Source: a virus
DNA length: 64,000 nucleotides
Reading direction: 5' to 3' (one strand)
Virus record (IMG/VR): IMGVR_UViG_3300029922_000014
Location: 64,001-128,000 of that record
Shown: positions 462 to 63,113 of the stretch, in pieces
Position numbering within the stretch: the stretch's first letter is position 1
Layout: every line of letters starts with the position of its first letter
Translations under genes and position numbers: made by a program
The notes under the pieces: generated by a model
What the model was told of the DNA's origin: nothing
What the model saw: only the letters and a program-made list of their open reading frames with translations
Databases searched by the model: none

Positions 462-830
462 TCAGCACAGACGCCTCTCAGAGGCGCGTACAGCGGCTTT
501 CGTTACCGTAAAGACCCAGGGCCTGCTGTCGGATCCCAAGCGATATCCGTAGGCCTTCATGAAGGCTGATCCGGTATCGGTACCGGTTCGGGAAATGATC
601 GAACGGACGTCGCCAGACGTCACCAGCGTATCATTGATCACGGTGCGCAGTCCACACCGACGGCGGGCTTCCATGGTATGACTGGACAGAATCTCGATCA
701 CCCCCGGAATAGATGACCAGCGCGCGTACACCACGCAGGCAGGACACGGCAGATCCTCGACACTGGCTTCGTAGACGAAAACGCCAGGGACGGTGCTGAA
801 GCGTCGGGCGACGGTGGGCTTGATTGACAT
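462..830 (-). CDS. Small protein, possibly GNAT-fold acetyltransferase
   Basis: RRRCGL resembles GNAT motif A and is followed by G.AFMKAYGY; ATG lies inside the Box A copy at 825-837. Confidence 0.4.
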   Translation of the reverse strand: MSIKPTVARRFSTVPGVFVYEASVEDLPCPACVVYARWSSIPGVIEILSSHTMEARRRCGLRTVINDTLVTSGDVRSIISRTGTDTGSAFMKAYGYRLGSDSRPWVFTVTKAAVRASERRLC

Positions 831-837
831 CGTGTCA
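825..837. promoter_or_regulatory. Box A palindrome (TGACATCGTGTCA)
   Basis: Exact copy; contains the stop of 835..1305 and the ATG of 462..830. Confidence 0.85.
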
Positions 838-1305
838 GTTCAGAGACGGTTCAAGCTGAATGGATCCACCAGTGAACTCGCACGCCTTTTCGGATGGTGC
901 AAAACCCGGTTGCGCGATGAACCCATGCGCCCAATGGCTGCGCTGAATGTGATTCAGCACTTGTTGCACGATCACCGGAACCACTTCCGGGTCGACGCCC
1001 ATGGTGCGCAAGCGCTCTGCGAGAAATTGCAAATGGGTACCGAACATACCCCATGAGGTCATCACAGACGCCGCAGGGGTGTCGATAATCCCCACGCTGC
1101 ACACGCCGGAAACTGGCGACAGTCGCGTCAGGATAAAATATCCACGACAGCCATCAGCGCGGGCGTGCGCATCCGCGGCGCGTGCGCGTTGGTAGTGGGC
1201 AAGAATGCTCACAATCAGTACTTCCTCTGACTCTTCCGCAATGCGCGAAGAACGAAGTTCTTTCTCTTTCTCCACGGGATGAAGACGTCGTTCCGTGGCC
1301 TCCAA
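835..1305 (-). CDS. Hypothetical protein (start uncertain)
   Basis: ORF in the dominant orientation; stop lies in Box A. Confidence 0.5.
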   Translation of the reverse strand: MEATERRLHPVEKEKELRSSRIAEESEEVLIVSILAHYQRARAADAHARADGCRGYFILTRLSPVSGVCSVGIIDTPAASVMTSWGMFGTHLQFLAERLRTMGVDPEVVPVIVQQVLNHIQRSHWAHGFIAQPGFAPSEKACEFTGGSIQLEPSLN

Positions 1306-1374
1306 CCCTCAAGCGGCAAACGCGCCGGTTTATCAATACCAAAGAGGCGAAAGAATGCGTCGCGCCAGTTCATA

Positions 1375-1668
1375 TCAGCGCTTGTCTTCGCGCAGTTCGC
1401 GATTCCAGGAAAACTCCGAACGCGGAATGAACGGTTCGGCCAAGTCACGCTCCCACACCGTGATCACATCACCGTCTTCGTTCACCACACGGTATCCCGG
1501 GCATACACCCGTGCTCGTCGTGACCACGCACGGGCGAATGATACCGACCTGCTTCCCCTTGTAGTGGGCGATGGTGCCTTCGCCGGTGACGGAGTTCTTC
1601 GCCGCATCGGTGATCATAGCCGGGTTGAACCGGAACTTCATGGGGGCGGGTGCGGTGGCGGTCGGCAT
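1375..1668 (-). CDS. Hypothetical protein
   Basis: GAGAG upstream of ATG; packs tightly with neighbours. Confidence 0.6.
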   Translation of the reverse strand: MPTATAPAPMKFRFNPAMITDAAKNSVTGEGTIAHYKGKQVGIIRPCVVTTSTGVCPGYRVVNEDGDVITVWERDLAEPFIPRSEFSWNRELREDKR

Positions 1669-1676
1669 GGCGTCTC

Positions 1677-2096
1677 TCAGAAAGAGGAGTTGGACGGGGT
1701 CGAGAACCCCGAGGTGTAGTAGAATCCCTGGTGTTTCGGGCGAGGCGGAGGTTGTGGCGTACGCTGGCGCTTCAGGCGATCCTGTCGCGCCTGCTCGTAC
1801 AGGTCCAGCTTCTTTCCGAATGCGCGTTTGGTCGCCAGTTCAGCTTCGGAGGGAAGCGGCCACAGATATTCAATGTCGGGTTTCGCTTGCATCGACCGCA
1901 GCGGAAAGTGAGTGCCGCAACCGGCGCAGTGGAACATAGCAGGAATCAGTGTGGTTGCGTTGACGCGCAGGTTGAACTTGACGCAACCACACGTGCAGAT
2001 CACTGGAACCTGTGACACCTGCCGGACGCCAGCGGCGCTGATGAAAAAGTCGAGTTCAGCGCCGTTGACACTCGCGCGGTAGTGGGATTCAGCCAT
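1677..2096 (-). CDS. Hypothetical zinc-ribbon protein
   Basis: CxC and CxxC pairs (CTCGC...CAGCG). Confidence 0.55.
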   Translation of the reverse strand: MAESHYRASVNGAELDFFISAAGVRQVSQVPVICTCGCVKFNLRVNATTLIPAMFHCAGCGTHFPLRSMQAKPDIEYLWPLPSEAELATKRAFGKKLDLYEQARQDRLKRQRTPQPPPRPKHQGFYYTSGFSTPSNSSF

Positions 2097-2520: not shown

Positions 2521-2545
2521 AAAACACCGAATAACACGACGTCAA

Positions 2546-5060: not shown

Positions 5061-5067
5061 GGCGGGG

Positions 5068-6350: not shown

Positions 6351-6363
6351 TGACACGATGTCA
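6351..6363. promoter_or_regulatory. Box A palindrome (TGACACGATGTCA)
   Basis: Exact copy next to the stop at 6365; Box B-like 6316-6328 nearby. Confidence 0.85.
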
Positions 6364-8548: not shown

Positions 8549-9003
8549 TTCAATCTCTTACGCAGGCTGATGGACGCGGATTGGACGATCTCGGATTCAA
8601 CATCGCCTGCCATAGACCCGCCGGGATCGCGGTTGTAGTTGATCGTGAATCCGAGCGCTTGAACACGCTTCCAGGCATCTGCCAAAATGGCACGGGCGGT
8701 GATCTCCGGAGACGTGAAGTCGTAAATAAGCGCAACGCTCGCGTCGGCATTCATGAGGTGCCAGCGGTTTCCGTTATTGTCAGATTCCACGACATACCCC
8801 TTGAACGTCGCGTAACTTGGTTCTTTGCCGCCTTCCCGAAGGAGTGAGTACCCGTTGGACGTAACGCAGTCAACGGAGGCAGGAGCACGGAGACGTGGGA
8901 ACTTATCACTCAGCGCGTCGACGCGAATCAGACGCTCATTCTTCGCCTTGGCTTCTTCCAGGCGACGGCGGAAGGCTGCGATGGTGGAACGGATCATGGT
9001 CAT
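8545..9003 (-). CDS. Hypothetical protein with YNRDPGGSM domain
   Basis: ATGA-coupled to neighbours; C-terminal domain shared with 17544..19661. Confidence 0.6.
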   Translation of the reverse strand: MTMIRSTIAAFRRRLEEAKAKNERLIRVDALSDKFPRLRAPASVDCVTSNGYSLLREGGKEPSYATFKGYVVESDNNGNRWHLMNADASVALIYDFTSPEITARAILADAWKRVQALGFTINYNRDPGGSMAGDVESEIVQSASISLRKRLK

Positions 9004-9209
9004 AAGATGAGCCCGGCGCTGGCCGCGTAGCGGGTGAGCCCGGCGGTGTTGTGCAGGTCGAGCTTCTGCATCAGGTGTTCGCGGTGCTTTTCCACCGTCT
9101 TGACGCTCATGCCAAACATCTCTGCGATCTCTTGCTTGGTCGCACCGTCGGCGGTCATGATCAAGACTTGGCGCTCGCGTTTGGTCAGGTAAGGGCGGGT
9201 CGTGGGCAT
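9000..9209 (-). CDS. Stand-alone LuxR/GerE-type HTH regulator
   Basis: LTKRERQVL..ADG.T..EIA......KTVEKHREHLMQKL; leaderless start. Confidence 0.9.
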   Translation of the reverse strand: MPTTRPYLTKRERQVLIMTADGATKQEIAEMFGMSVKTVEKHREHLMQKLDLHNTAGLTRYAASAGLIL

Positions 9210-9294: not shown

Positions 9295-9307
9295 TGACAC
9301 GATGTCA
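9295..9307. promoter_or_regulatory. Box A palindrome
   Basis: Exact TGACACGATGTCA, intergenic. Confidence 0.85.
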
Positions 9308-10823: not shown

Positions 10824-11008
10824 GGTTCCGACTCCGTAGTAGGGTTCTTGCGCTCTTTGTCGAGGGCATCGAGACATTTGCGCAGGCGCTTGATGGCCTT
10901 CAGCGGGGTTTCATCCACGGCGCGCAGGATAACCATCCCGGTCCTGGTTTTCACTTCGACAGCGTTGCCGGCGACGCCGACCTTGAGGAATGGATCGTTG
11001 ATGATCAT
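10814..11008 (-). CDS. Hypothetical protein
   Basis: ATGA-coupled. Confidence 0.45.
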   Translation of the reverse strand: MIINDPFLKVGVAGNAVEVKTRTGMVILRAVDETPLKAIKRLRKCLDALDKERKNPTTESEPCP

Positions 11009-11565
11009 TGCGCACGCGGCGATTTCATGGAGGAAACGGACCGCGCGGCGATACTCTGACGATAGCGCGCTTCGATGATGACAGCCTCTTCCTGACCGAA
11101 CTCGTTGGCAAGGTCGTGGTATGCCGCACGCCCTGGACACTCCCATACGAGATCATTGTCGCTTTGTAGTGCGCTCGCCCTTTTTGGCGTCTGGTGCAAG
11201 AACTCCCGGGCCATTTCCCAAATGGTGTTGTATACCGCCTCTGCCATTTCCGCAGGGAGCGGGTCTGCCCGCAGATACGCGGTACAAATCTGCCAGAGTT
11301 CATCCGACGTGATGCCCCGGCGCCCCTCTTCGATCTCAACCAGAATCGGGAAGGACCAGCCAAGCTGATGCGCTGCCTGCGTAGTGGTCAATCCGCACTT
11401 CTCGCGAAGGTCGCGCAGCTTCATTCCGATCGCCTGCCAGTCGATTGTCTTCGACGGCGCGTCGCGCTTTACCCTGCGGTTCACGAGGTATGCGACGGTA
11501 GCACCACACGAATAGAGCACTGCCAAAACAGCAGCCAAAAACACGATGGCGGCAATGATTGACAT
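11005..11565 (-). CDS. Membrane-anchored XRE-family HTH protein
   Basis: N-terminal hydrophobic helix; IGMKLRDLREKCGLTTTQAAHQLG.S...LVEIEEGRR; ATG inside Box A. Confidence 0.75.
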   Translation of the reverse strand: MSIIAAIVFLAAVLAVLYSCGATVAYLVNRRVKRDAPSKTIDWQAIGMKLRDLREKCGLTTTQAAHQLGWSFPILVEIEEGRRGITSDELWQICTAYLRADPLPAEMAEAVYNTIWEMAREFLHQTPKRASALQSDNDLVWECPGRAAYHDLANEFGQEEAVIIEARYRQSIAARSVSSMKSPRAQ

Positions 11566-11572
11566 CGTGTCA
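11560..11572. promoter_or_regulatory. Box A palindrome
   Basis: Exact copy providing the stop of 11570..11911 and the ATG of 11005..11565. Confidence 0.85.
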
Positions 11573-15445: not shown

Positions 15446-15520
15446 ATGGTACCGACCTTGAATCCCTGTCAATGCGCAGTTTTCCGCGTCATGCACAAAT
15501 GGTCAATTGACATCGTGTCA
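15446..15520 (-). promoter_or_regulatory. Promoter TTGACA-N15-TACCAT with Box B (15484-15496) and Box A (15508-15520)
   Basis: Read directly from sequence. Confidence 0.75.
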
Positions 15521-15956: not shown

Positions 15957-16565
15957 TTACGCCGTGATCTTCAGCGCTTCGAGCAGCTTTTGCTTTTGTT
16001 CATCCCAGGACGGGAGCACGTTGCGCGCCTCCCACGTTCCGATGGACATGACGCTGCAACCGACGCGCTTGGCCAATTCCTCTTGCGTCAGTTTCAGGGC
16101 GTTGCGCGCTTCGAGCAGATTGAACGACGCAGGTTTATTGCCTGACGCCGCAACGGGCTTGACCGGATTCGGAGACGAAACCGTAGTGGTCACCGCCGCT
16201 TTCGGTGAGGCTGCTTTCGGGGGCGGCGTCGGGGGCCAGACTTTCGGATCCGTGCCCTTGGCAAGATTCTGCTGCGCCATCGCCTTGAACTTGGCAAGGG
16301 CCGCTTCATCGCGAAACAGGACCGTGCTACGATACGCCGTCGGCGCCAGGGCATTCAGTTCCTCGATGGTCAAGCCGGTCAGCTTGGACAACTCCGCTTG
16401 TACCACCTCGCGGATGCCGGGGTTGATTGGCCATTTGTCGCTGCGGAACATGTTGCTCAGCGTCGATGGCTTCAACCCTGCATCGGATGTGATTTTGTGC
16501 AGGGGAACACCGGTGGCGCGGCATAGCTCACGCAAGATGGCGGTCTGTGCTCGACGGTTGCTCAT
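15957..16565 (-). CDS. Transcription regulator with two XRE-type HTH domains
   Basis: N-term LHKITSDAGLKPSTLSNMFR; C-term LLEARNALKLTQEELAKRVGCSVMSIGTWE; Pro/Ala/Lys linker. Confidence 0.75.
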   Translation of the reverse strand: MSNRRAQTAILRELCRATGVPLHKITSDAGLKPSTLSNMFRSDKWPINPGIREVVQAELSKLTGLTIEELNALAPTAYRSTVLFRDEAALAKFKAMAQQNLAKGTDPKVWPPTPPPKAASPKAAVTTTVSSPNPVKPVAASGNKPASFNLLEARNALKLTQEELAKRVGCSVMSIGTWEARNVLPSWDEQKQKLLEALKITA

Positions 16566-19688: not shown

Positions 19689-19701
19689 TGACGACGTGTC
19701 A
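19689..19701. promoter_or_regulatory. Degenerate Box A (TGACGACGTGTCA)
   Basis: One arm mismatch; intergenic, next to the stop at 19703. Confidence 0.6.
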
Positions 19702-20972: not shown

Positions 20973-20985
20973 TGACACGATGTCA
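20973..20985. promoter_or_regulatory. Box A palindrome
   Basis: Exact copy, intergenic. Confidence 0.85.
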
Positions 20986-24799: not shown

Positions 24800-24812
24800 T
24801 GACACGATGTCA
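24800..24812. promoter_or_regulatory. Box A palindrome
   Basis: Exact copy; contains the stop of 24810..25010; Box B-like 24766-24778 nearby. Confidence 0.85.
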
Positions 24813-39157: not shown

Positions 39158-42100
39158 TTCTTGCCCATGGTCCCAAGCGACGTCTTCATGCCGGTATGGT
39201 GTTCGATGGTGCGGTGCAGGTCGTCGGCGTAGACGCCGTCCGCGGAATGCTTCACGGTGTACTTGCCGCCGCTGATCTTGCCAAAGTCCACCTTGTAGGT
39301 GTCGTCGGGCTTGAGGTGCACCTTGATGTGGTTGACGTTCTTGGCGTTCTTGCCGATCTTGAACTGGTAGGATGGCATGCCGGTGCCGGGAACGTGGGTC
39401 TCCTTGCCGTCCTCACCTTTGGTAGTGTAGCCCTGCCCGTGGTCGACCATCATGTTCTTGGCGCCGAGCATGAAGTGCGCCTTGGCACCGATCTGCTTGT
39501 GGATCGCGTGCGCCTTCTCCAGGCCTTCCTTGGCGGCCTTCTCGTTGATGGCTTCGGTAAGGGATTCTTCCTTCTTGCCGAAACCGGGGGCGGCGCGGAC
39601 GCCGTGCTTCTCGCGAACCTTGGCTCGGGCTTCCGGGTCCTGCTTGTGGCCCATGTGCCCCTTGTCGGGCGTGCTGCCGCCCCACTTGCCGCTGTTGATG
39701 TTCTTGAGGATGTCGGAGTACTTGATCTCCATCTTCCCCGGCTTGTGGCCATCCTTGATCGCGTAGGTAGAGACGACGAGCGTCGCGCGGTCCTTATCCA
39801 GGTCGCGGGACTTGATCGTCCACCAGACGTTCTTGATGACTACGGACTTGTTCGGAACGAAGTACTTCCGCAGGTCCTTGTCGTTGAGTTTGCCTTCGGT
39901 CAGCGATTCGTTGTGCAGGTGGATGTGGACGTGCTTGGCCTTGTCCTCGGGGCCTTCGTCTTCGTCGTCGTCGTCTTCATCACCCTTGCTGTTGGCACCG
40001 CCTTCCTCTTCTTCTTCGTCCTCTTCGTCGGGAACGTCGTCGGTACCGGTAGCGCCGGGAGCCGGCGGCGGGACAACGGTCGGGTTGGGCAGTTCGTTGG
40101 CGCCCTGCGCACCAGCACGGGTCATCATCTGTTCGCCCATCTTCGGGACGGAGATGTAGCCGGTGGGGCTGGCCTTCCATTCGTTGGGCTTGAGCCCAAA
40201 GCGCTCTTCGATGCGGACTTCCATCGCGTCGATGTCGCAGTCGGCGCACAGGAGCATATCGTAGTAGGTCTGAACGTCGGCCACGGTGAAGTTCTTGGGA
40301 TCGACACCCTCCGCCAGGATCTTGGCCTTCGCGTCGTCGAGCCGCGTCTTGGCTTCCGTGGTCAGGTTCTTGGACAGCCCAACATACAGCTTCAGCCGCG
40401 CGGCGGCGGTCTTGGCGTTGGGTGACGATTCCAGGAGCCCCTTGGCGATCGACGCGGCAGAGCCCTCAAAGAAGTTCTCCGGCGGGGTCCAAGATTCGCC
40501 CAGTTGGACGAAGTTCTTGCCCTTCATCGCCTGCATCGCGTTGCCCTTGGTCGTGGCGCGCACGCAGGAGACAACCAATTGCCCGTCGGCGTCCATGGTC
40601 TGCTGCATCAGCGATTCGGCTTGATCCATGGTCAGAGCGTTGTTGTTCACCAATTCCCAGCCGTCCTTGGTCTTCTGGCAGATCCAGTAGTCGCAGGAGG
40701 CTTTGCCAGCGGCTTCGGTAGTGGCCTTCTTCGCGAAGCCATGCTCATCGTGGTGGACCTTGTCGAACGTCTTGGCCCGGAGCTTCCCCATGGCTTCGCT
40801 GTGATCCTTGGCCTTGATGTATGCGGCGAAGTGCGGCTTACCGTGAGGGTAGGTCTTCTCGTTGTTTGGACCGGTGTGCGGCGTCAGCGCGTTGTCGATC
40901 GTGCGCTCCAATTCGCCCTTGGTCTTCTTGCCCTGGCCCAGAATGGGCTCATGCATCGTGGTGCCCTTGGCGCCCCGACCGATCACAGGGTAGTGCATGG
41001 TTTCGTCGATTGACGCGATGTCAGTGGCCTCAGTGATGCTCTTCACATGGACGCGGGAATCGTTGTGGACCGGATCATGCGACTGCACCGACGTCGCAAA
41101 CATCTCGGCGTGTTTCTTCGCACCGAACTTGAAGGCGTGATGCTGTTCCTTCGTGTCGCCGCGCGTGCTGGTTCCAACATGCTCACCGGACCGATGACCC
41201 ATGGCACCGGCGGCCTTCTTCAAATGATCGACCGTGAACGGCTTGCCCGACGAATGCTTGGCACTGTGGGCCACCAGCACGTAGTGAGCTTCGTCGATGC
41301 CTTCGTTGCGGCGCTTGAGCATGTTGCGGGCGGTGCCGCGCTTGCGCTTGCCGAGCATGCCGTACTTGGACGGGAAGCTGGCACGGACGGGAGCGAAGGA
41401 GGCAGAGGCGAATCCGCCTACGGTGCCGGAGCGGGTCATCTCGTCGATGTAGTCGAGGAATGATCCGGGAAGCTCCACCTCTGCGCCCTCAGCATTGAGG
41501 AAGATCAGGTCACCGTTGACGTCTTCCGACATGGAACAGGTGTCGCCGGCCGGGGAGATGACGGTCACACCTTCGGTGCCGATGACAAGCTTCCAGGTCT
41601 GGTCTGATTCGACGGATTCCTTGACGGAAAAGTCGCCCATCAGAAAGTTCATGATGTCGACGTGGGCGGCGGTCGAATCGCCATTGTGCTTGGTCAGGAT
41701 CTTGTCGATCCCACTACGGTAGAGAACCATGTCGCCTTCGTCGACGTAGCGGAACACATTCTCGTCATCGCGGATGGTCACGGAGACGACGCCGGGTTCG
41801 ATCTCGACTACTTCCCAGGCCGGCTGCTCCAGCGATTCGCGGACCTTGGTCGCGGCGTCAGCGGGCTGTTCGTCGGCGTTGGGGTCCTTGATCTTCTTCG
41901 GCGGGACGGGCTGCTTGCCGAGCGGGGTACATTCGATGATCGACACATCGGAGACGCGGTCGTTGGCGATGTCGGTGGTGCCGGCGGTCAGGGACAGCTT
42001 GTATTTGAGGAACTGTGCTTCCCCCAGCTTGCCGGTGTCGTCGCGGGTCAGGGCGCCCTCGAAGATGGCGGTGAAGCTCTTGGGGCCGACTACGGTCTCG

Positions 42101-43956: not shown

Positions 43957-44040
43957 CTCCAGGTCCGGGGGACCGTTGGGGTATGGCTGCATCATGGCGG
44001 GATTGACACGATGTCAATCGCTGTTTTCCGCGTCATGCGG
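43957..44040 (-). promoter_or_regulatory. Expression cassette 3: Box B (44028-40), Box A (44004-16), -10 CATGAT, Box C, SD
   Basis: All elements read directly. Confidence 0.8.
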
Positions 44041-44051
44041 AAAGCACCGCA

Positions 44052-47450: not shown

Positions 47451-47536
47451 CTCCTTGGTCCATTGGACCGTTGGTGTGATGAGCGAAGCATATGCGGACT
47501 GACATCGTGTCAATGCCTCTTTTCCGCATAGCGCGT
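47451..47536 (-). promoter_or_regulatory. Expression cassette 4: Box B (47524-36), Box A (47500-12), -10 TATGCT, Box C, SD
   Basis: Its 64-bp core is near-identical to 48940-49003. Confidence 0.85.
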
Positions 47537-47546
47537 AAAATGCTCT

Positions 47547-48939: not shown

Positions 48940-49023
48940 CTCCTTGGTCCTTTGGACCGTTGGTGTGATGAGCAAAGCGTATACAGACTGACACGATGTC
49001 AATCAAGTTTCTGCATAGCGCGG
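48940..49023 (-). promoter_or_regulatory. Expression cassette 5: Box B (49011-23), Box A (48989-49001), -10 TACGCT, Box C, SD
   Basis: All elements read directly. Confidence 0.85.
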
Positions 49024-49578
49024 CAAATGCCGATAAGTTTGACCGCGACGGATGTATTCGATCACATCGCGTGACACTCCGTACGTTTGGGCTAACGCTG
49101 TGATCGAATCAGCAGAAGCAATGATCTCCGCAGCCTGCGCATTGGTCAGGAGCGCTTTGCAATGCTCCTCGCCCCAGGGCATGCGCCCGTTGCGTATAGC
49201 ATCAGCAGCATTGGCCGCCTGTGTGTCGTATCGCAAATTGTCTAGACGGTTGTCAAATGGGTTGTCGTTCGCGTGGCACATGACCGCCCTGGAAGGGCGC
49301 GGGCCGACAAACGCCCGTAGAACAATCAGCCCAACCGGCCTGACGAGTCTATTTGCGCGCCCGTTACGCAAATTGCAAATCGGAATCGCGCGACGCCTGT
49401 ACCCAACCCGTGCAACAGTCAATTTCAGTTCAGCCGGCTCCTGATCCAGTTCGATCGTCGAAGTCCTGAACCCCTGGTGCTTGAACGAAAACACACGCCC
49501 GTGATCAGTAACGTAATAACCGTCCCAGCCCACAACCGGAAGCTGGTGCTCACCATCTCGAAGATGAGCAATCCACAT
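49003..49578 (-). CDS. NUMOD4/HNH homing endonuclease
   Basis: PVVGWDG.Y.VTDHGRV.S, AFVGPRP....CH.ND...DNRLDNLRYDT..AN. Confidence 0.85.
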   Translation of the reverse strand: MWIAHLRDGEHQLPVVGWDGYYVTDHGRVFSFKHQGFRTSTIELDQEPAELKLTVARVGYRRRAIPICNLRNGRANRLVRPVGLIVLRAFVGPRPSRAVMCHANDNPFDNRLDNLRYDTQAANAADAIRNGRMPWGEEHCKALLTNAQAAEIIASADSITALAQTYGVSRDVIEYIRRGQTYRHLPRYAET

Positions 49579-49584: not shown

Positions 49585-49669
49585 CTCCTGGTCCAGGGGA
49601 CCGCTGGTGATGGGGGGTCATCATGCACGGACTGACACGATGTCAATCGCTGTTTTCCGCGTCACGCGG
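49585..49669 (-). promoter_or_regulatory. Expression cassette 6: Box B (49657-69), Box A (49633-45), -10 CATGAT, Box C, SD
   Basis: All elements read directly. Confidence 0.8.
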
Positions 49670-50174
49670 GAAGCGGGTAACTGGCGCGGTCGGCGTTCCG
49701 GATCAGGTTGCAACGCATGACGTACAGCGCCATTTCCATGTCGCGGCGGTTTGGGCGACTCGGGCGCGGCTTGGAACGCCGCCCGCCTGCCCGACGGTGG
49801 TTCTTCATGTACTGGCTCAATATCTTGCCGCAGACGTCCCAGTCGGGGATGGTCTCGCGGGCGACGCGCATCTGCCATTGGTAGTTGGCGTAAAAGGCCA
49901 CGTGTGCGCAAGACGGTGCACCGTACTCGACGCGCAGTTCGTTCTTGCACGGACGCGGACCGAATTGCCCGAATCCCGGAATGGTCACCGGTCGGCCGAG
50001 CACTACCTGTTCCATGATCGCTTCGCACAGATAAGTCAGCGCGATGCCCATCTCGTATTCGTTCTTGCCGGAGGCGCGGGCGGCTTGAACCAGCGCATCC
50101 CCAAGCCCGTCGATTGGATTCGAGCGGACGCTGGTGATGCGGGTGGTATTGTTCTGTGGAATGCCTTTGGGCAT
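49662..50174 (-). CDS. HU/IHF-like DNA-binding protein (divergent)
   Basis: EAIMEQVVLGRPVTIPGFGQFGPR. Confidence 0.55.
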   Translation of the reverse strand: MPKGIPQNNTTRITSVRSNPIDGLGDALVQAARASGKNEYEMGIALTYLCEAIMEQVVLGRPVTIPGFGQFGPRPCKNELRVEYGAPSCAHVAFYANYQWQMRVARETIPDWDVCGKILSQYMKNHRRAGGRRSKPRPSRPNRRDMEMALYVMRCNLIRNADRASYPLPA

Positions 50175-53271: not shown

Positions 53272-53298
53272 AGCATGCGGCAATTGACATCGTGTCAG
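53272..53298 (-). promoter_or_regulatory. Box A (53285-53297) overlapping a putative portal promoter CTGACA-N15-CATGCT
   Basis: Exact Box A in the terL-portal gap. Confidence 0.75.
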
Positions 53299-57037: not shown

Positions 57038-58927
57038 TCAGTGTGCCGCGGAGAGCGTAGTGGTTTTCGCGCCATGCGCAACAACAACGGAAGAGCCGCC
57101 GCGGTCGACCACAGAGAACACGACATCCGCCGCAGCTTTTATGCGTTCGTCGTGGGTCACCATGATCACCGGGCAGGTCGCTGCGGTTTCTTTCAGAATG
57201 TCGATCACGTAGGAGCAACCCTGACGATCGAGCCCGTCAAAAATCTCGTCGACGAAAAGCTGGTTGAATGGCTTGACGGTCCGGGACGCCAGGAGGTCCC
57301 GGAAAGCGCAGAGAAGCGAAACATCGAACCGGCGCTTCTGCCCCTTGCTCGCGCCGTGGTACAGGTCGGTCTTGCCGGGAATGACGGCCTCGACGGACAG
57401 TTCCTCGCGGTAGACATCGCGCTTGGTCTTGAGTTCCCGGGTAGCATGGAGGCGCAGGATCGCCCCGGGTCCGAGGAGACGTTGCGCGTAGGCCGTGGCC
57501 CTGCGGTTGATCTCAGGTATCTCGGATTCGATCAGGAAGCTCTTGATCCCGGAGTTGCCAAATGCTTCGATCCAGAACAGGAGTTGATCCTGGCGCCCGC
57601 GCAGTTCGGCCTGTTCTTCGGTCAGCTTGAGGAGCTTGTTGCGCCCAATGGCGATCTCGGATTCAAGTGCAGTCACAGCGGCGCGGTCCTGGGACATGCG
57701 AGACTTCAACGATGCCACGCGTTCGCGCAGGGTGGCAGCTTCGGCCCGGAGGCGGCTCAACTCTTCGTCTTTGTGGGCAATTGCAGCCGCGTAAAGGCCT
57801 GCCCAGCGATCATTCGGTTGCAGCACGTCCGCCAGGGAGTCCTGCGCCGTTCTGGCCTCTGTGAGCCTCCGTTTGGCATCTGCAAGCTGGGGCGCCAAAG
57901 CTTCGATCGAATCACGCAGGGCGCGGACGTTCATGTCCGCGTGGCTGGCTTTGACTTCCTGCTCGCAAGCGGGACAGCGACTGCCGGTCATGTTCGCCCA
58001 CGACGCCATCTCTTTCTTCTGCGCACTGAGCCTGACTTCGGTGCGAGCGATCTCACCAGAGATGGTGGAGATGATGTCGGTGTGCGCACTGCGCTGCGCG
58101 TTGATGGCGGCCTGCTTGACCGCGACTTCACGGCGGCGAATGGTGATGGCAGCGGCGGCTTTTTGCTGACGCTCGACAAGACGAGCACGATCGACGGTCG
58201 TTCGGATTGACATCGCGTTAGTCCGACGAAGCCGAGCCTGCGCACGGATGAAGTCGAAGGACACTTCGCTATTGTCCTGGTTCGCCTTCTCCTGAAGGAC
58301 TTGCAGGCGCACGTTCTGATTCTCCAGCACCGCAGTCACCGACGCGATCTCCGTGTCGATGCGGTCGAGGTTCGGCTGGATCATCTTGGAGTCAGAAGCG
58401 GCGAGCTTGCGCGCATCCTCATACAGTTCGAGGCACAGCATCTTGTCAAAGATGCGTTTACGGTCGCTGTCGTCGGCGGAGAAGAACGACTTCACCTCTT
58501 CGCGCACGCCGAAAGCGACCACGTTCATGAAGCTCAGGTAGTCGACACCGATCATCTGCACGATCGCGGCGTCGGTCTGCGCGTTGGTTCCGCGAGTGAC
58601 TTCAACGTCATCGACGAAGAGGCGCACGTTGTCGCGGTGCTTCGGGTGCTTGCGGTAACGGATGCAGCGGATCCTGGTTTTTCCGTCGGTGATGTTGACG
58701 GACACATACGTACCGCCCGTGGAGTCGTGCCGGATGATGTTGTCGCCGTCGTACTTCGGCCGAATACACTTACTATAGAGTGAAAAACTAATACCGTCGA
58801 ACAGGGCACTTTTGCCCATGCCGTTATCACCCTCAATGAGGGTCAATCCAGTCTTCGCAAAGTCGAAGCTCGTCTGCTCGAAGAACATGAAGTTGCCGTA
58901 GTCGACCAACCCAATGACAAAGCTCAC
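57038..58927 (-). CDS. Rad50/SbcC/gp46-like recombination ATPase
   Basis: GDNGMGKS, coiled coils with CPAC zinc hook, SKGQ signature, LFVDE.FDGLD, VTH. Confidence 0.92.
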   Translation of the reverse strand: MSFVIGLVDYGNFMFFEQTSFDFAKTGLTLIEGDNGMGKSALFDGISFSLYSKCIRPKYDGDNIIRHDSTGGTYVSVNITDGKTRIRCIRYRKHPKHRDNVRLFVDDVEVTRGTNAQTDAAIVQMIGVDYLSFMNVVAFGVREEVKSFFSADDSDRKRIFDKMLCLELYEDARKLAASDSKMIQPNLDRIDTEIASVTAVLENQNVRLQVLQEKANQDNSEVSFDFIRAQARLRRTNAMSIRTTVDRARLVERQQKAAAAITIRRREVAVKQAAINAQRSAHTDIISTISGEIARTEVRLSAQKKEMASWANMTGSRCPACEQEVKASHADMNVRALRDSIEALAPQLADAKRRLTEARTAQDSLADVLQPNDRWAGLYAAAIAHKDEELSRLRAEAATLRERVASLKSRMSQDRAAVTALESEIAIGRNKLLKLTEEQAELRGRQDQLLFWIEAFGNSGIKSFLIESEIPEINRRATAYAQRLLGPGAILRLHATRELKTKRDVYREELSVEAVIPGKTDLYHGASKGQKRRFDVSLLCAFRDLLASRTVKPFNQLFVDEIFDGLDRQGCSYVIDILKETAATCPVIMVTHDERIKAAADVVFSVVDRGGSSVVVAHGAKTTTLSAAH

Positions 58928-59928
58928 GACAGCCCCTTCGCTCTCTCCAGCAGTTCATTGCCGAGTTTGGACAGGTGCCCACCCGGATCAGGCAGATCGC
59001 GGTATTTCAGATAGGCGGTGATGATGTCGCCGTGGGTGTGGCTGGTGCGGATGTCGATCCGCGGCGGGGCTCCTGGCGCTTCGGAATAGCTCGACCTGAC
59101 GATGCGGGCATGTTCGACCTTGGCCTTGATCTTCAGGTAGGTCGCGTGGTCCGGAGCGTCGATCCAGATGAAGTCGTTTTCGCCAACCTCCGGGACCGCG
59201 AAGGAGTCGGTGATCTTATAGAACCGCGGGCTGACGGTGTTCTCGACGAATGACAACGTGTCAGTCTCGGTATCGAGGATGCGCACCCCGCGCTTCCCGC
59301 CGCAGTCACCAAAGTCCAATTGCATCGGGGAGCCGATGTAGTGGATGTTGTCGGTATCCTTCGGTGCGTGCACGTCACCCAGCAGAACACGCTTCCAGGA
59401 CCGGGGCTTGAGCGCTTCGATCGGCAGAGTTTTGGCGGACTTGTGGACGGCGCCGTCGATCAGGGCATGCGCCAGCAGGTAGTCGCAATGCGATTCCTCG
59501 GCGGCCTGGGCGATGTCTTCGGCCAGTTGGGTGTTGTCGTCCGTCCAGGGCATGAGCATGAACGGCGGCATCATGAATGGCTGATCAATCACCTCACCGC
59601 TGCCGAGAAAAATCTGCATCGAATTGATGCCGGGCGTACGCAGGTAAGAATCGTGGTTCCCGACGATGAAGCACAGATCGACGCTTTGCGATGTTTCATG
59701 CACGACGCGGCAGAGGCGGTCCAGCACCGACATGTCGATGCTGGTGCGGGAGTCGATGAAGTCCCCGACCACGAAGATACGCTCGCACTTCTGGTCGATC
59801 GCGATTTTGGTCATCCACCGCCAGCAGTCGAGCATATCGGTCAAACGCGTCGAAACGCCGTCGACGCCGATCGTCGAAAGACCGGCGTAGGTATCGAACT
59901 GCCAGTCGGCGGTGAGCAGAACTTTCAC
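58924..59928 (-). CDS. Mre11/SbcD/gp47-like nuclease
   Basis: TADWQ, VGDF.D, VGNHD, GDVH, YIGSP.Q.DFGD. Confidence 0.9.
   Translation of the reverse strand: MKVLLTADWQFDTYAGLSTIGVDGVSTRLTDMLDCWRWMTKIAIDQKCERIFVVGDFIDSRTSIDMSVLDRLCRVVHETSQSVDLCFIVGNHDSYLRTPGINSMQIFLGSGEVIDQPFMMPPFMLMPWTDDNTQLAEDIAQAAEESHCDYLLAHALIDGAVHKSAKTLPIEALKPRSWKRVLLGDVHAPKDTDNIHYIGSPMQLDFGDCGGKRGVRILDTETDTLSFVENTVSPRFYKITDSFAVPEVGENDFIWIDAPDHATYLKIKAKVEHARIVRSSYSEAPGAPPRIDIRTSHTHGDIITAYLKYRDLPDPGGHLSKLGNELLERAKGLS
59251..59263. promoter_or_regulatory. Box A (ACG core) inside the nuclease gene
   Basis: TGACAACGTGTCA, perfect arms. Confidence 0.55.
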
Positions 59929-61518: not shown

Positions 61519-61527
61519 AATATTTCC

Positions 61528-62136
61528 TTACAGCCAAGGTGCGGTTTGAACGATGGACTTGAACACGATCTCGGCGGAGAAGGTCGGCACGCTGGTGTCG
61601 TAATAGTCGATGGTGAAGTCGTGCGCCGCGAGATAGGCGAGGATGTTGTAGACCATCGGAATGTCACCATGCAGCCGCGCCTGCGCCAGCTTCATCCGCT
61701 CTGTATCGAGTTCGTCACGGGCAGTGACGCGCTTCTCGCGCACGTCGGGCGGTGCCCAAAGATGCACGAACATGCTGCGGTAGGGCAGCGCGATGGCGTC
61801 GTGCATCTGCTGCCAATCCCGCGGCTGCCCGTCGATCAGAATGACCTTCTTGCCTGCGGCGGTGTGGGCGCTGATCCCATCGACACACATCTTCCACGCT
61901 TCAACCGCGGTGTGCGCCGGGGCTGCTTGGCCTTGAAAGTGGGATGGCGGATACTTCGCCCGCATCATCTTTCCGACTTCGACCAGCCCGACGGTGGACT
62001 TCTTGCCCAGTTCCGCCAGGAGCGTGGTCTTGCCGACACCGTTCGGTCCCAGGATCCACGCCAACACAGGGCGCGTCCAAAAGGCCATGTCGACTTCGTA
62101 GGGGGATATTTTGGGTTCAGCGGTCGCGGTGTTCAT
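61528..62136 (-). CDS. Nucleoside monophosphate kinase (adenylate kinase-like)
   Basis: ILGPNGVGKTT, VG..MR, ILIDGQPR...Q. Confidence 0.75.
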   Translation of the reverse strand: MNTATAEPKISPYEVDMAFWTRPVLAWILGPNGVGKTTLLAELGKKSTVGLVEVGKMMRAKYPPSHFQGQAAPAHTAVEAWKMCVDGISAHTAAGKKVILIDGQPRDWQQMHDAIALPYRSMFVHLWAPPDVREKRVTARDELDTERMKLAQARLHGDIPMVYNILAYLAAHDFTIDYYDTSVPTFSAEIVFKSIVQTAPWL

Positions 62137-62142
62137 GGGTCC

Positions 62143-63048
62143 TCAGATGTCCAAGCGGATCTTGTAGCGGCGACCGTCCATCTCGGTTTCGGTCGGGCCA
62201 ACCCACGTGGCAGGGATGATGACGGTCTTGCCCTTCATCGCGGAATAGCGCTCTGCGTTGTAGGTGCGGAAGTGCCGGCGGCGGGCATGGGAACCCGGGC
62301 TGCTATGTGAACCGCGCAGGCTGGGAAGCAGATGCTGGATCTCGCGAGGGTACAGCGTGGTGTAGCGCGGGCGGTCGTCGCTGCGCAGGATCTTTCCGGC
62401 CTTCTTCGCCTTATCGGGTGACCGCGCCTTCATGGACAGGGACTCAACCACGAAGCGCGCTGGCTGGTTGAACCAGCACACCTCTTCGATGGCAGCCCCG
62501 ACGTTGCGGATGGCGCTTGCTTCGATGCCTGCGAATGCAGTCACGGAGCGGTTGCGCTGCTGCGGCAGGATGATCTGGTCCTTGGTCACTGCCGCCCACC
62601 ATTCGAGGTTGCCGGCGAGGGTGACGGGGTTGCGTTCGGCAGTCGGCTGGAATTGATAGCTGGACAGGGTTCCAACGGTGATGACGTAGGTGTCGGAGGG
62701 AACACCCTTGTCCTTGAAGAACGCGGTGCTGGGGCTGGGAGTCGAATCTGCGAACTCGCCTTCCGTGCCGAAGATCGGGTAGCATTCGATGAACGTGCGT
62801 GGTTTTGAAAAACCGACCTGCGCTTCATCCTCGTCTTCGATCAGGATGCAGGAGGCAGTGTCTTCGATCGCGGTGCAGTGGAACGGGAGGAAGAAGCTGT
62901 CGACCAGTTCTTTCACATCGCCATATTCCATTTCTTTCAGGATCTCGTGCGCGCGGCCAGGGAAGCTGAAGAGGGCGGCGGATTCGCACATCGCCCGGAG
63001 TGGCGGGATATGACGTTCAGCAAAGCCGCAGAGTTTATCGAAAATCAT
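62143..63048 (-). CDS. Conserved hypothetical phage protein
   Basis: C-terminal SP..HARRRHFR...I...WVG motif. Confidence 0.65.
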   Translation of the reverse strand: MIFDKLCGFAERHIPPLRAMCESAALFSFPGRAHEILKEMEYGDVKELVDSFFLPFHCTAIEDTASCILIEDEDEAQVGFSKPRTFIECYPIFGTEGEFADSTPSPSTAFFKDKGVPSDTYVITVGTLSSYQFQPTAERNPVTLAGNLEWWAAVTKDQIILPQQRNRSVTAFAGIEASAIRNVGAAIEEVCWFNQPARFVVESLSMKARSPDKAKKAGKILRSDDRPRYTTLYPREIQHLLPSLRGSHSSPGSHARRRHFRTYNAERYSAMKGKTVIIPATWVGPTETEMDGRRYKIRLDI

Positions 63049-63063
63049 GGTTACCTGGGGGGA

Positions 63064-63113
63064 ATGATAGTTGAACTGACACGGTGTCAATCATTGTTTT
63101 CCGCGTAGTGCGG
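63064..63113 (-). promoter_or_regulatory. Promoter TTGACA-N15-TATCAT with Box A (63077-89, CGG core) and Box B (63101-13)
   Basis: Read directly from sequence. Confidence 0.75.

What the first reader, a model, noticed from the sequence alone, without database searches (positions are those of the whole stretch)
825..63089. Window-wide 13-bp operator network (Box A, TGACA-N3-TGTCA) at gene junctions and promoters
Seen: 18 exact copies of TGACACGATGTCA or its complement (825, 6351, 9295, 11560, 15508, 20973, 24800, 29645, 31427, 34342, 36038, 37684, 38096, 44004, 47500, 48989, 49633, 53285). Three more have perfect arms but a variant core (33177, 59251, 63077), and there are degenerate copies at 2532, 19689, 41011 and 58208. 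Nearly all sit in tiny intergenic gaps or overlap stop/start codons, eight supply a promoter -35, and one lies between terL and portal. Known analogy: the ~13-bp stoperators of cluster A mycobacteriophages, which are repressor-bound operators and elongation roadblocks at gene junctions. Those are asymmetric and polarised; these are near-palindromic and occur in both orientations. Inference: one phage protein can silence or coordinate the whole genome, implying a repressed or carrier state in a T4-like large phage. Alternatively the sites are genome-organising or recombination sites.
Basis: partly seen in the sequence, partly recalled or inferred. Interest (0 to 1): 0.85.

Follow-up and report, generated by a model that had tools for sequence, protein, structure and literature searches.

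The report
Evenly spaced phage palindrome array
An uncultured 150-kb phage and a distant relative both write one short DNA palindrome about every 2.7 kb along the whole chromosome, most likely as docking sites for the phage's own partner-less ParB-type DNA clamp; no paper I found assigns a reader to such phage arrays.

Summary
All 18 exact TGACACGATGTCA copies are at the stated coordinates (0.01 expected by chance), as are the 3 core variants and 4 degenerate copies. The window is part of a complete 150-kb phage genome with nearly all genes on one strand, 50 exact-arm copies and 55 copies with at most 1 mismatch. The real motif is a 19-bp palindrome, RAY-TGACA-YSR-TGTCA-RTY.

Spacing is far more even than chance (CV 0.54 against 0.97; largest gap 6 kb against 13 kb). 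Intragenic copies fill the gaps left by long genes. Thirteen copies form the -35 of a stereotyped promoter cassette. Many others use the box's own TGA as the upstream stop codon.

A 95-kb relative (30-50% protein identity) carries 37 copies of a drifted version, TRACAY-N-RTGTYA, with the same even spacing.

The stoperator, repressed or carrier-state reading is not supported. The sites are symmetric and orientation-free, and the genome has no integrase and no ParA.

The best candidate reader is an orphan ParB/KorB-type CTPase encoded just outside the window in the replication module and conserved in the relatives. That assignment is circumstantial, about 50%.

This scan has noted similar arrays in about 8-10 other phage genomes. 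Those are unchecked AI notes.

The parts
825..837 (.). Box A, exact. Its TGA is the stop of gene 835-1275 and its internal ATG is the start of gene 462-830.
2532..2544 (.). Degenerate Box A (2 arm mismatches) next to a Box B word
6351..6363 (.). Box A, exact. It abuts the stop (TGA-T) of gene 6365-6673 and reads TTGACA on the transcribed strand.
9295..9307 (.). Box A, exact, intergenic, 85 nt upstream of the GerE/LuxR-type gene 9000-9209
11560..11572 (.). Box A, exact. Its TGA is the stop of gene 11570-11911 and its internal ATG is the start of the HTH_3 gene 11005-11565.
15508..15520 (.). Box A, exact, intergenic
19689..19701 (.). Box A with 1 mismatch, abutting the stop (TAA-C) of gene 19703-19867
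20973..20985 (.). Box A, exact, in a tight gene junction
24800..24812 (.). Box A, exact. Its TGA is the stop of gene 24810-25010.
29645..29657 (.). Box A, exact, abutting the stop of gene 29659-29967 and 15 nt before the next start codon
31427..31439 (.). Box A, exact. Its TGA is the stop of gene 31437-31772. A 346-nt noncoding gap follows.
33177..33189 (.). Box A with a fully palindromic core (CGG/CCG). Its TGA is the stop of gene 33187-33576.
34342..34354 (.). Box A, exact, inside the TnpB/IS605 OrfB-like gene 33694-34911
36038..36050 (.). Box A, exact. Its TGA is the stop of gene 36048-36221 and its internal GTG is the start of gene 35690-36043.
37629..37725 (-). Promoter cassette: Box B, Box A (37684-37696) as the -35, a -10-like hexamer, the Box C leader hairpin, then SD
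38047..38137 (-). Promoter cassette with Box A at 38096-38108
41011..41023 (.). Box A with 1 mismatch, inside the 1072-aa gene 39154-42372. It fills a 5.9-kb gap between intergenic sites.
43957..44045 (-). Promoter cassette with Box A at 44004-44016. It drives the ADP-ribosylglycohydrolase gene 42985-43950.
47451..47541 (-). Promoter cassette with Box A at 47500-47512: TTGACA, 15-bp spacer, TATGCT
48940..49030 (-). Promoter cassette with Box A at 48989-49001: TTGACA, 15-bp spacer, TACGCT
49585..49674 (-). Promoter cassette with Box A at 49633-49645
53285..53297 (.). Box A, exact, between terL (53305-55434) and portal (50177-53239)
58208..58220 (.). Degenerate Box A (2 mismatches) inside the SbcC-like gene 57038-58927
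59251..59263 (.). Box A with exact arms and a variant core, inside the SbcD-like gene 58924-59970. It fills a 9.8-kb gap between intergenic sites.
63050..63118 (-). Promoter cassette with Box A at 63077-63089 (palindromic CGG/CCG core): TTGACA, 15-bp spacer, TATCAT. It abuts the stop of the 5'-3' exonuclease gene and drives gene 62143-63048.
9000..9209 (-). Rival candidate reader: 69-aa GerE/LuxR-type HTH protein
   Evidence: Pfam GerE, E 2.7e-17. No family member in relative G011.
11005..11565 (-). Rival candidate reader: Xre-type HTH_3/HTH_31 protein
   Evidence: No homologue or family member in G011.
15957..16565 (-). Rival candidate reader: protein with a C-terminal HTH_3
   Evidence: No homologue or family member in G011.
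63091..64000 (-). 5'-3' flap exonuclease gene, which runs on to genome position 128050. The ParB-like gene follows immediately beyond the window at genome 128145-129335 (window-equivalent 64145-65335), behind the Box B + Box A cassette at genome 129419.

Best explanation
Box A is a selected array of about 50-55 binding sites for a dimeric DNA-binding protein. The consensus is RAY-TGACA-YSR-TGTCA-RTY. The sites are spread about every 2.7-3 kb over the whole phage chromosome.

The most likely reader is the phage's own orphan ParB/KorB-type CTPase: 396 aa, genome 128145-129335, in the replication-recombination module.

Proposed mechanism (inferred):
- ParB dimers nucleate on each box, bind CTP, close into clamps and slide a kilobase or so. 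Sites every ~3 kb would then keep the whole phage chromosome loaded.
- At the 13 cassette promoters the box is the -35, so occupancy would shut those sigma70-type, non-structural-gene promoters off, including the parB promoter itself, as proximal OB sites do for KorB.
- At junction and intragenic sites the array would serve a chromosome-scale purpose, such as organising, marking or protecting replicating phage DNA.

Shown: the array, its selection, its even spacing, its DNA-level nature, its conservation in a relative, and the presence and conservation of an intact ParB-type protein.

For: Enrichment. 18 exact copies against 0.01 expected in the window. Genome-wide there are 50 exact-arm sites and 55 with <=1 mismatch.

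Even spacing. The CV of the gaps is 0.54 against 0.97 for random placement (P<2e-4), and the largest gap is ~6 kb against ~13 kb. With the intergenic sites fixed and the 13 intragenic ones randomised within coding sequence, CV still gives P<2e-4 and the largest gap P=8e-4.

DNA-level dimer site, not a hairpin. The arms are invariant. The -7/+7 flank positions do not covary, and the non-pairing C..A combination is the commonest (18/50). Core orientation is unrelated to transcription. The hairpin would be weak and no T-run follows.

Conservation. Relative G011 (33 shared proteins at 25-55% identity) has 37 TRACAY-N-RTGTYA sites against 0.02 expected. Its spacing CV is 0.51 (P<2e-4). It shows the same junction, stop-codon and cassette usage.

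The ParB-type protein.
- Domains: ParB_N plus HTH_ParB. It passes TIGR00180 with 78 bits against a 58.45 cut-off.
- Solved relatives: the best sequence match is Caulobacter ParB 6t1f, E 1.4e-16, over both domains.
- Model: pLDDT 90. It superposes on the KorB-KorA-DNA complex 8qa9 (TM 0.78 of the target), ParB-parS 6t1f (0.75) and Noc.
- Family: 77 full-length representatives at E<=1e-30. In the 60-sequence alignment G116 and R119 are invariant, and R118, E156, N157 and R162 (the nucleotide-pocket boxes) are >=90% conserved.
- Context: no ParA and no ParA-binding peptide, so it is not a partition system. The gene is syntenic in all five relatives found, between a RecA-like and a flap-exonuclease gene. 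It sits behind a Box B + Box A cassette in both G000 and G011.

Rival readers are absent from G011: no GerE and no HTH_3 hit in 95 kb, while both families ring in G000 as controls.

Recognition-helix trend. KVRRCL occurs in G000, G011 and L146, all of which are enriched for the ACAY-N-RTGT core. The diverged helices of L148 go with no detectable array.

Not a host box. The 19-mer has 10 single hits in 596 Gb of prokaryote genomes, about the chance level.
Against: - No binding data exist; the ParB assignment is guilt by association.
- Two ParB-bearing relatives (L146 and L148 types) show little or no array within ~20 kb around the gene. ParB is therefore not sufficient for an array, or their sites were missed.
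- G011 is only 68% complete, so the rival HTH proteins could lie in the missing third.
- About 100 small ORFs of this phage are unannotated and could include the true reader.
- Known ParB-family sites have abutting half-sites (parS, NBS) or a 1-bp centre (OB). Box A has 8-bp half-sites around a 3-bp core.
- Box B (TTTCCGCG-N3-CGCGGAAA-like) resembles parS and NBS in its outer TTTC...GAAA and could be the ParB site instead.
- Box II reads GHRRLL where the family has GERR. The two arginines are kept, but CTP binding is unproven.
- An unrelated phage without ParB (G002) uses TTGACA-N3-TGTCAA boxes as local early-region operators, so other proteins can read such words.
Confidence: 0.5

Rival explanations
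1. Operator/stoperator-like network. A classical phage HTH repressor (GerE/LuxR-type or Xre-type) binds Box A. It represses the cassette promoters and blocks elongating RNA polymerase at gene junctions, giving a silenced or carrier state.
For: - 42 of 55 sites are at gene ends or in intergenic DNA, although only 10% of the genome is noncoding.
- 13 sites overlap a -35.
- The phage encodes one GerE-type and two Xre-type HTH proteins. Two of those genes lie right behind or on a Box A copy.
- G002 shows such boxes acting as local operators in a phage without ParB.
Against: - The arms are symmetric and the core is orientation-free, unlike stoperators (PMC9283540).
- 13 intragenic copies are placed so as to even out the spacing.
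- The genome has no integrase and no ParA.
- G011 keeps the array but has no GerE or HTH_3 family member and no homologue of the three candidates in the 95 kb held.
- With a site every ~3 kb, proximity of a gene to a box carries no information.
Confidence: 0.2
2. Host-factor site. Box A is read by a host protein, such as a nucleoid-associated protein, topoisomerase, host ParB/Noc-like protein or global regulator. The phage recruits it along its chromosome.
For: - Half of the box is the sigma70 -35 hexamer TTGACA.
- The host is unknown, so its regulators cannot be checked.
- Box B is nearly unchanged between G000 and G011, which would fit a shared host factor for the cassette.
Against: - The 19-mer occurs only 10 times, always singly, in one genome each of 185,579 species. 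That is at or below chance.
- The box has drifted between two related phages (centre S to W, flank RA lost). This is the pattern expected for co-evolution with a phage-encoded reader.
Confidence: 0.12
3. RNA-level element. Each box forms a hairpin in the polycistronic mRNA. The hairpin acts as a processing, stability or translational-coupling signal; the box carries a stop (TRA) and a start (RTG) 4 nt apart in either orientation.
For: - All genes share one strand, so every box is transcribed.
- The box's TGA or TAA serves as the upstream stop 11 times in G000 and 8 times in G011. Its ATG or GTG serves as the next start 3 and 5 times.
Against: - The arm sequence is invariant, rather than merely complementary.
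- The flank positions do not covary, and C..A is the commonest combination.
- The stem is only 5 bp, at -2.4 to -7.3 kcal/mol, with no T-run after it.
- Even spacing and mid-gene copies have no RNA-level rationale.
- Stop and start use is the minority and is explained by genome compaction.
Confidence: 0.06
4. Selfish or recombination element. The boxes are REP/MITE-like mobile palindromes, or recombination or homing hot-spots, that have spread through the genome without serving the phage.
For: - The asymmetric CGA core is exactly conserved in 38 of 50 copies, which could reflect copying.
- A TnpB/IS605-like gene is present at 33694-34911.
Against: - A selfish spread does not predict even spacing, which is maintained in two phages that have diverged to 30-50% protein identity.
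- Intragenic copies are in frame in essential genes (DNA polymerase, SbcCD, large structural genes).
- No IS200-type TnpA was seen next to the TnpB-like gene.
- The element is only 19 bp, with no flanking duplications evident.
Confidence: 0.05

Closest known systems
KorB and its OB operators on IncP-1 plasmid RK2 (PMC11790492, PMC13768133)
   Same: - Both involve a ParB-family CTPase with an NTD plus an HTH DNA-binding domain. The phage model's best superposition is on the KorB-KorA-DNA complex.
- Both have one palindromic site with an odd centre, dispersed over the whole replicon. Some copies lie next to or on promoters and others are far from any promoter.
- In RK2 a second short operator for a small partner protein (KorA/OA) sits at target promoters. 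Here Box B sits at a fixed 22-24 bp from Box A in 13 cassettes.
   Different: - RK2 has 12 sites on 60 kb, not evenly tiled. This phage has ~55 on 150 kb with significantly regular spacing, including in-frame intragenic copies.
- KorB has a ParA partner (IncC) and also partitions the plasmid. This phage has no ParA and no ParA-binding peptide.
- The replicon here is a contractile-tailed phage with no sign of lysogeny.
- The box overlaps the -35 itself, whereas proximal OB sites lie 4-10 bp upstream of the promoter.
- Binding and CTP dependence are untested.
Cluster O mycobacteriophages (Corndog): 17-bp repeat TGTTCGG-N3-CCGAACA (PMC4351075)
   Same: - More than 30 copies per genome of an inverted repeat around a 3-bp spacer, with invariant arms.
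- One dominant asymmetric central triplet with no orientation bias.
- A mix of intergenic and intragenic positions.
- The phages are not obviously temperate and have no integrase or parAB.
- They encode an orphan ParB-like protein, gp90 (ParB_N 27.7 bits, AGQRR box).
- The authors concluded that a dimeric binder acts in something other than transcription initiation, and left it unassigned.
   Different: - The sequence, phage lineage and host are unrelated.
- Corndog's 34 sites are not evenly spaced: CV 1.06, indistinguishable from random and crowded in the right arm.
- gp90 is only marginally similar to this ParB (pairwise E 0.08).
Stoperators of Cluster A mycobacteriophages (L5, Bxb1, TipsytheTRex; PMC9283540)
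   Same: - 13-bp sites at more than 20 positions per genome, in promoters and in short intergenic gaps.
- One phage protein proposed to act genome-wide.
   Different: - Stoperators are asymmetric, strictly oriented with transcription and read by a monomeric two-domain immunity repressor of temperate phages.
- Box A is symmetric, orientation-free, evenly spaced and also intragenic, and sits in a genome without lysogeny genes.
Dispersed SopB centromere sites of the plasmid-prophage N15, and chromosomal ParB-parS / Noc-NBS (own knowledge for N15; PMC8367383 and the structures for ParB and Noc)
   Same: - A ParB-family protein reads palindromic sites scattered on a phage or bacterial replicon.
- Noc is a precedent for an orphan ParB paralogue with dozens of sites and a non-partition role.
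   Different: - N15 has four sites and a SopA partner, and they serve plasmid partition of a prophage.
- parS and NBS half-sites abut, with no 3-bp core.
- None of these arrays tiles a replicon at regular intervals.

Membership tests
ParB-CTPase clamp with cognate palindromic sites (ParB-parS / Noc-NBS / KorB-OB) | ParB_N nucleotide-binding fold with the arginine box (GxRR) and the ENxxR box | tested here: met
   PF02195, E 1.3e-14. TIGR00180, 78.3 bits against a 58.45 cut-off. Box II reads GHRR and box III reads EN..R..LNP. In the 60-sequence family alignment G116 and R119 are invariant, and R118, E156, N157 and R162 are >=90% conserved.
ParB-CTPase clamp with cognate palindromic sites (ParB-parS / Noc-NBS / KorB-OB) | Central HTH DNA-binding domain of the ParB type | tested here: met
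   PF17762 HTH_ParB, 30.1 bits against a 22.6 cut-off. The alignment to 6t1f runs through the HTH. The fold matches the DBD-containing structures 8qa9, 6t1f and 7nfu.
ParB-CTPase clamp with cognate palindromic sites (ParB-parS / Noc-NBS / KorB-OB) | C-terminal dimerisation domain that closes the ring | tested here: inconclusive
   Residues ~285-373 are predicted as a confident helical domain and are conserved across the family: W295, G331, R340 and G341. All matching solved structures are C-terminally truncated, so there was no fold match to judge by.
ParB-CTPase clamp with cognate palindromic sites (ParB-parS / Noc-NBS / KorB-OB) | Specific binding of the protein to the palindrome, and CTP-dependent loading and sliding | not testable with these tools
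   The support is circumstantial only: co-conservation of gene and array in G000 and G011, and absence of the rival HTH families in G011.
ParABS partition system | ParA-type ATPase partner and an N-terminal ParA-interaction peptide (L/F/I)G(K/R)G(L/F/I) | tested here: not met
   No PF13614 hit in the genome, while 14 of 14 control genomes ring. No such peptide occurs in the low-complexity N-terminus. I therefore do not file this as a partition system.
Cluster A stoperators | Asymmetric site whose orientation follows the direction of transcription | tested here: not met
   The arms are palindromic. On the transcribed strand the core reads TCG 23 times and CGA 15 times, interleaved along a genome transcribed almost entirely in one direction.
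Cluster A stoperators | Temperate phage with an immunity repressor (integrase or parABS present) | tested here: not met
   No PF00589 integrase and no ParA. Serine recombinases and an L5 gp71 homologue were not searched for.
Cluster A stoperators | Sites in promoters and in short intergenic gaps across the genome | tested here: met
   42 of 55 sites are intergenic or at gene ends, and 13 are at cassette promoters.
Cluster O-type phage dyad-repeat arrays | >30 copies of an inverted repeat around a 3-bp spacer, with invariant arms, a dominant asymmetric core without orientation bias, and both intergenic and intragenic copies | tested here: met
   against the description in PMC4351075. This is an analogy of form only: the sequences are unrelated, and Corndog lacks the even spacing.
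Intrinsic terminator / structured RNA element | Stem kept by compensatory changes; a G+C-rich stem followed by a U-run for terminators | tested here: not met
   There is no covariation at the flank positions, and C..A is the commonest combination. MFE is -2.4 to -7.3 kcal/mol, and the longest T-run downstream is 3.

The most novel reading that the evidence does not exclude
A lineage of large, apparently non-temperate phages tiles its chromosome every ~2.7 kb with loading sites for an orphan ParB-CTPase clamp encoded in the replication-recombination module. The whole viral chromosome would then be kept coated with sliding clamps. That would be a virus-encoded, chromosome-wide DNA-marking or organising system that also switches off the early promoters. 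The same principle could explain the dyad-repeat arrays of Cluster O mycobacteriophages, unexplained since 2015, and the similar arrays this scan has noted in other phages.
Probability: 0.4. Interest if true: 0.85.

Novelty: new variant of a known kind. Interest (0 to 1): 0.72.

Why it matters
ParB-family CTPase clamps are known from chromosome and plasmid partition, nucleoid occlusion and, since 2025, long-range silencing by KorB. A phage that spaces about 50 loading sites regularly along its genome, with no ParA and no lysogeny genes, would be a new use of this switch: coating or marking an entire viral chromosome.

It would also offer a testable mechanism for the genome-wide palindromes seen in phage genomes since the Cluster O report and never assigned a reader.

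The system is compact and easy to test: one 396-aa protein and one 19-bp site. The regular-spacing rule, including sites written in frame into essential genes, is a clear selective signature. It could be used to find such systems in metagenomes.

Tried and rejected
Searches for relatives that found nothing useful.
- Close relatives in the isolate phage collection by DNA.
- IMG/VR by terL and ParB peptide patterns.
- The 14-mer in IMG/VR gave ~100 single chance hits. Ten large contigs each held only 1-2 copies.
- The 19-mer in metagenomes gave 22 loci, none related.
I therefore could not fetch the 5 contigs carrying the identical ParB or the contigs of the 77 family members.
A 12-sequence alignment worked.

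Leads dropped.
- G002, an unrelated 61.5-kb phage, has 4 exact copies. It turned out to carry a local cluster of TTGACA-N3-TGTCAA operator-like boxes, and it shares no ParB and no other protein with this phage in the locus held. I treat it as convergence on the -35 hexamer.
- Blind palindrome and repeat searches in the small relatives L146, L148 and L149 found no clear array (one script timed out).

Ideas considered and rejected.
- N4-type hairpin promoters for a virion RNA polymerase: both loop orientations occur, and no RNAP was found. The 2450-aa protein gave only a Nudix-like hit.
- Strand-specific nick sites, Chi-like sites and replication polarity signals: the core orientation shows no polarity.
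- Antisense promoters at the C-flanked sites: no -10 on either strand.
- ParB as a partner of a T-dioxygenase, as in bioRxiv 10.1101/2025.08.14.668559: those ParBs lack the DNA-binding domain that this one has. The neighbours here are a flap exonuclease and an unknown protein.

Full report
**1. The observation**

The 13-mer TGACACGATGTCA or its complement occurs 18 times in the window, at exactly the stated coordinates. Dinucleotide-preserving shuffles give 0.01. TGACA-N3-TGTCA occurs 21 times against 0.11 expected, which adds 33177, 59251 and 63077. The degenerate copies at 19689 and 41011 have one arm mismatch; 2532 and 58208 have two.

The window is bases 64001-128000 of a 150,436-bp IMG/VR phage record whose 127-bp terminal repeat marks a circular assembly. 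Genome-wide there are 38 exact 13-mers, 50 exact-arm sites and 55 sites with at most one mismatch.

Each half-site reads R-A-Y-T-G-A-C-A-Y, with A at -8 in 98 of 100 half-sites, around a central C or G. That makes a 19-bp palindrome.

**2. The genome**

My codon-bias gene caller places nearly all of its 181 genes on the minus strand, with 90% coding density.

The phage has a gp23-like major capsid protein, at most 32% identical to any isolate. It also has a tail sheath, baseplate, prohead protease, portal, terL, family-A DNA polymerase, helicases, a RecA/UvsX-like protein, SbcCD-like nuclease, a thymidylate-synthase-like enzyme and a TnpB-like gene.

It has no sigma-70 region 2, no ParA-type ATPase and no tyrosine integrase; the control genomes rang for each search. 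Nothing points to lysogeny.

**3. Anatomy of the sites on the transcribed strand**

There are three contexts.

(a) Thirteen cassette promoters, at genome 84, 3077, 5340, 8114, 62580, 101684, 102096, 108004, 111500, 112989, 113633, 127077 and 129419.
- Box B (CCGCR-N3-YGCGG) has its centre 22-24 bp upstream of the Box A centre.
- The first arm of Box A is a TTGACA -35, followed by a 15-16-bp spacer and a TAYNNT or CATGAT -10.
- In ten of the cassettes a leader follows with Box C (GGTCC-N3-GGACC) and an SD.
- The cassettes drive non-structural genes: a helicase, an ADP-ribosylglycohydrolase, the ParB-like gene and small unknowns. None lies in the 8.5-62 kb structural module.

(b) About 29 junction sites without a -10 on either strand.
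- In 11 of them the box's own TGA is the upstream stop codon. In 7 more the stop abuts the box (TGA-T or TAA-C).
- In 3 the ATG or GTG inside the box is the next start codon.

(c) Thirteen copies lie well inside genes.

Box B promoters without Box A also exist, for example at genome 66499. Box A is therefore an addition to that promoter class, not part of its definition.

**4. The box acts on DNA, not RNA, and spacing is under selection**

- The arms are invariant in sequence, rather than merely complementary.
- The flank positions -7/+7 do not covary, and the non-pairing C..A combination is the commonest, at 18 of 50.
- The asymmetric core reads TCG 23 times and CGA 15 times on the transcribed strand, interleaved along the genome.
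- The RNA hairpin would be worth only -2.4 to -7.3 kcal/mol, and no site has a T-run longer than 3 after it.
- The gaps between sites have a CV of 0.54 against 0.97 for random placement (P<2e-4). The largest gap is about 6 kb against about 13 kb expected.
- A stricter null fixes the 42 intergenic sites and scatters the 13 intragenic ones at random in coding sequence. The observed CV is still reached in none of 5000 trials (P<2e-4), and the largest gap gives P=8e-4. The intragenic copies sit where long genes would otherwise leave holes.

This argues for a function that reads the DNA at regular intervals. The preference for gene ends then looks like the cheapest place to write a 19-bp word that begins and ends with a stop codon.

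**5. Not a host box**

The degenerate 19-mer has 10 hits, all single, in one genome each of 185,579 prokaryote species (596 Gb). That is at or below chance. The host is unknown, so this does not exclude an unsampled host.

**6. Candidate readers**

Earlier notes of this scan on overlapping windows proposed a ParB-type protein. I tested that lead independently.
- The genome has one ParB_N gene, at 128145-129335. It starts 145 bp beyond the window's right edge and sits behind the cassette at 129419.
- It has ParB_N plus HTH_ParB domains and passes TIGR00180.
- It aligns with Caulobacter ParB and with Noc over both domains.
- It keeps the arginine box (GHRR, where the family has GERR) and the EN..R box.
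- It has no ParA-binding peptide in its low-complexity N-terminus.
- An AlphaFold2 model built from a 60-sequence family alignment is confident, with pLDDT 90.4. Its N-terminal and DNA-binding domains superpose best on KorB in the KorB-KorA-DNA complex (8qa9, TM 0.78 of the target, rmsd 3.2 A) and on ParB-parS (6t1f, TM 0.75).
- The C-terminal helical domain is confident and conserved, but has no solved counterpart to compare with.

**7. Comparative test**

An exhaustive profile-free search found 77 full-length family representatives at E<=1e-30. A 12-member alignment retrieved six viral loci representing four phage types.

All are distant relatives of this phage. They share the synteny DNA polymerase, SSB-like, RecA-like, ParB-like, 5'-3' exonuclease, unknown, SbcD, SbcC, then terL and portal, at 30-50% identity. 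The ParB-like gene is therefore a conserved member of the replication-recombination module.

The 95-kb relative G011 carries 37 copies of TRACAY-N-RTGTYA against 0.02 expected by shuffling.
- Mean gap is 2.6 kb and CV is 0.51 (P<2e-4). The largest gap is 5.4 kb (P=8e-4).
- Its genes are also unidirectional.
- 25 of 37 sites are at junctions. Eight use the box's TGA or TAA as a stop, and five use the internal ATG as a start.
- Box B + Box A cassettes recur, including one in front of its parB gene.
- The half-site has drifted: the centre is W instead of S, position -5 is G or A, and the RA flank is lost. Box B is almost unchanged.

G011 has no homologue of the three HTH candidates and no GerE or HTH_3 family member at all in its 95 kb, while my genome rings as a control. 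G011 is only 68% complete.

The smaller fragments temper the link.
- L149 has 4 Box A-like sites against 0.29 expected.
- L145 has 5 ACAY-N-RTGT cores against 0.52 expected.
- L146 and L148 show no clear array in blind searches.

The recognition-helix motif follows the same trend. KVRRCL occurs in G000, G011 and L146. KVRRAL occurs in L149. The two tandem paralogues of L148, where no array is seen, read RVRRAL and RIRRYL. With four lineages this is suggestive only.

**8. Comparison with known systems**

Stoperators are asymmetric, oriented with transcription and read by a monomeric immunity repressor of temperate phages (PMC9283540). Those defining features were tested here and not met.

KorB-OB is the closest mechanistic model. 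KorB is a ParB-family CTPase that loads at a dispersed palindrome, slides up to 1.5 kb, represses promoters that lie 4-10 bp or more than 1 kb from OB, and is locked by a small operator-bound partner (PMC11790492). Differences here are the absence of ParA, about 55 regularly spaced sites, in-frame intragenic sites and a phage replicon.

Cluster O mycobacteriophages are a striking formal precedent. They have 34 copies of a 7-3-7 palindrome with invariant arms and an orientation-free TTT/AAA core. They are not temperate, have no parA, and encode an orphan ParB-like gp90. I confirmed a marginal ParB_N hit in gp90. Corndog's sites are not evenly spaced, with CV 1.06, so the tiling property is not shared.

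A survey of the ParB-CTPase fold notes many orphan, mobile-element-linked homologues, including in phages (PMC12704722). A preprint shows that DBD-less phage ParBs activate thymine dioxygenases. Neither describes site arrays. My full-text searches found no paper assigning a reader or function to such phage arrays.

**9. Verdict**

I put about 0.85-0.9 on the array being a real, selected, DNA-level, evenly spaced set of protein-binding sites conserved in a distant relative.

The main alternatives are a small phage HTH protein (about 0.2) and a host factor (about 0.12).

Clamp sliding, early-promoter shut-off and chromosome coating are inferences from the KorB, ParB and Noc precedents.

This scan's earlier notes report similar evenly spaced palindrome arrays with orphan ParB-like proteins in roughly 8-10 other uncultured phage genomes. 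They are unchecked AI notes and I did not count them as evidence, but they suggest a recurring class.

Noticed in passing
all Box A sites; G011 (L151-L155) sites: In both phages, and in either orientation, the box reads T-R-A (a stop codon), then 4 nt, then R-T-G (a start codon). It serves as the upstream stop 11 times in G000 and 8 times in G011, and as the next start 3 and 5 times. It is unclear whether this is only compaction or a translational re-initiation device.
   Followed up: partly
window 37629-49674 and 63050-63118; genome 84, 3077, 5340, 8114, 62580, 129419: The promoter cassette has three different 5-3-5 palindromes (Box B upstream, Box A as the -35, Box C in the leader) and an unusually short, fixed 15-16-bp -35/-10 spacer. 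Box B is nearly identical in relative G011, while Box A has drifted. The readers of Box B and Box C are unknown.
   Followed up: partly
window 33694-34911: A TnpB / IS605 OrfB-like gene (OrfB_IS605, Cas12f1-like TNB and HTH_OrfB domains) sits in the phage with a Box A copy inside it (34342). The neighbouring 129-aa ORF hit only DUF551, not a TnpA.
   Followed up: partly
window 31159-31342: Two tandem 92-bp direct repeats (82% identical), each beginning with a Box B-like word, lie in a 346-nt noncoding gap just downstream of box 31427. This could be an origin, an sRNA or a regulatory region.
   Followed up: no
window 6831-8144 (+): This 437-aa DNA repair exonuclease (phrog_704) is the only gene of substantial length that my caller places on the plus strand, in a genome otherwise transcribed almost entirely one way. 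It may be a later insertion.
   Followed up: no
window 5034-5061 and 11127-11154: A 28-nt inverted repeat, 96% complementary, with arms 6 kb apart. Unexplained.
   Followed up: no
window 34926-34976 and 38408-38458: A 51-nt direct repeat (92% identical) at the 3' ends of two different genes, suggesting a shared C-terminal module.
   Followed up: no
L147 / L148 (8894-9796 and 10001-10807): This relative carries two tandem ParB-like paralogues with diverged recognition helices. No palindrome array is detectable in the ~20 kb held.
   Followed up: partly
L013 (IMGVR_UViG_3300036791_000517, 61.5 kb): An unrelated phage without a ParB homologue has 11 TTGACA-N3-TGTCAA-like boxes, 4 of them identical to Box A, clustered in an 8-kb early region. 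They are probably local operators built on the -35 hexamer.
   Followed up: partly
L157+L158 (Mycobacterium phage Corndog, AY129335): The published 34-copy Cluster O palindrome array is not evenly spaced (CV 1.06, like random). This differs from the arrays in G000 and G011, even though Corndog also encodes an orphan ParB-like protein.
   Followed up: yes
window 42985-43950: An ADP-ribosylglycohydrolase gene (Pfam E 1.9e-62) lies directly behind a cassette promoter. It could be a counter-defence or host-takeover function.
   Followed up: no
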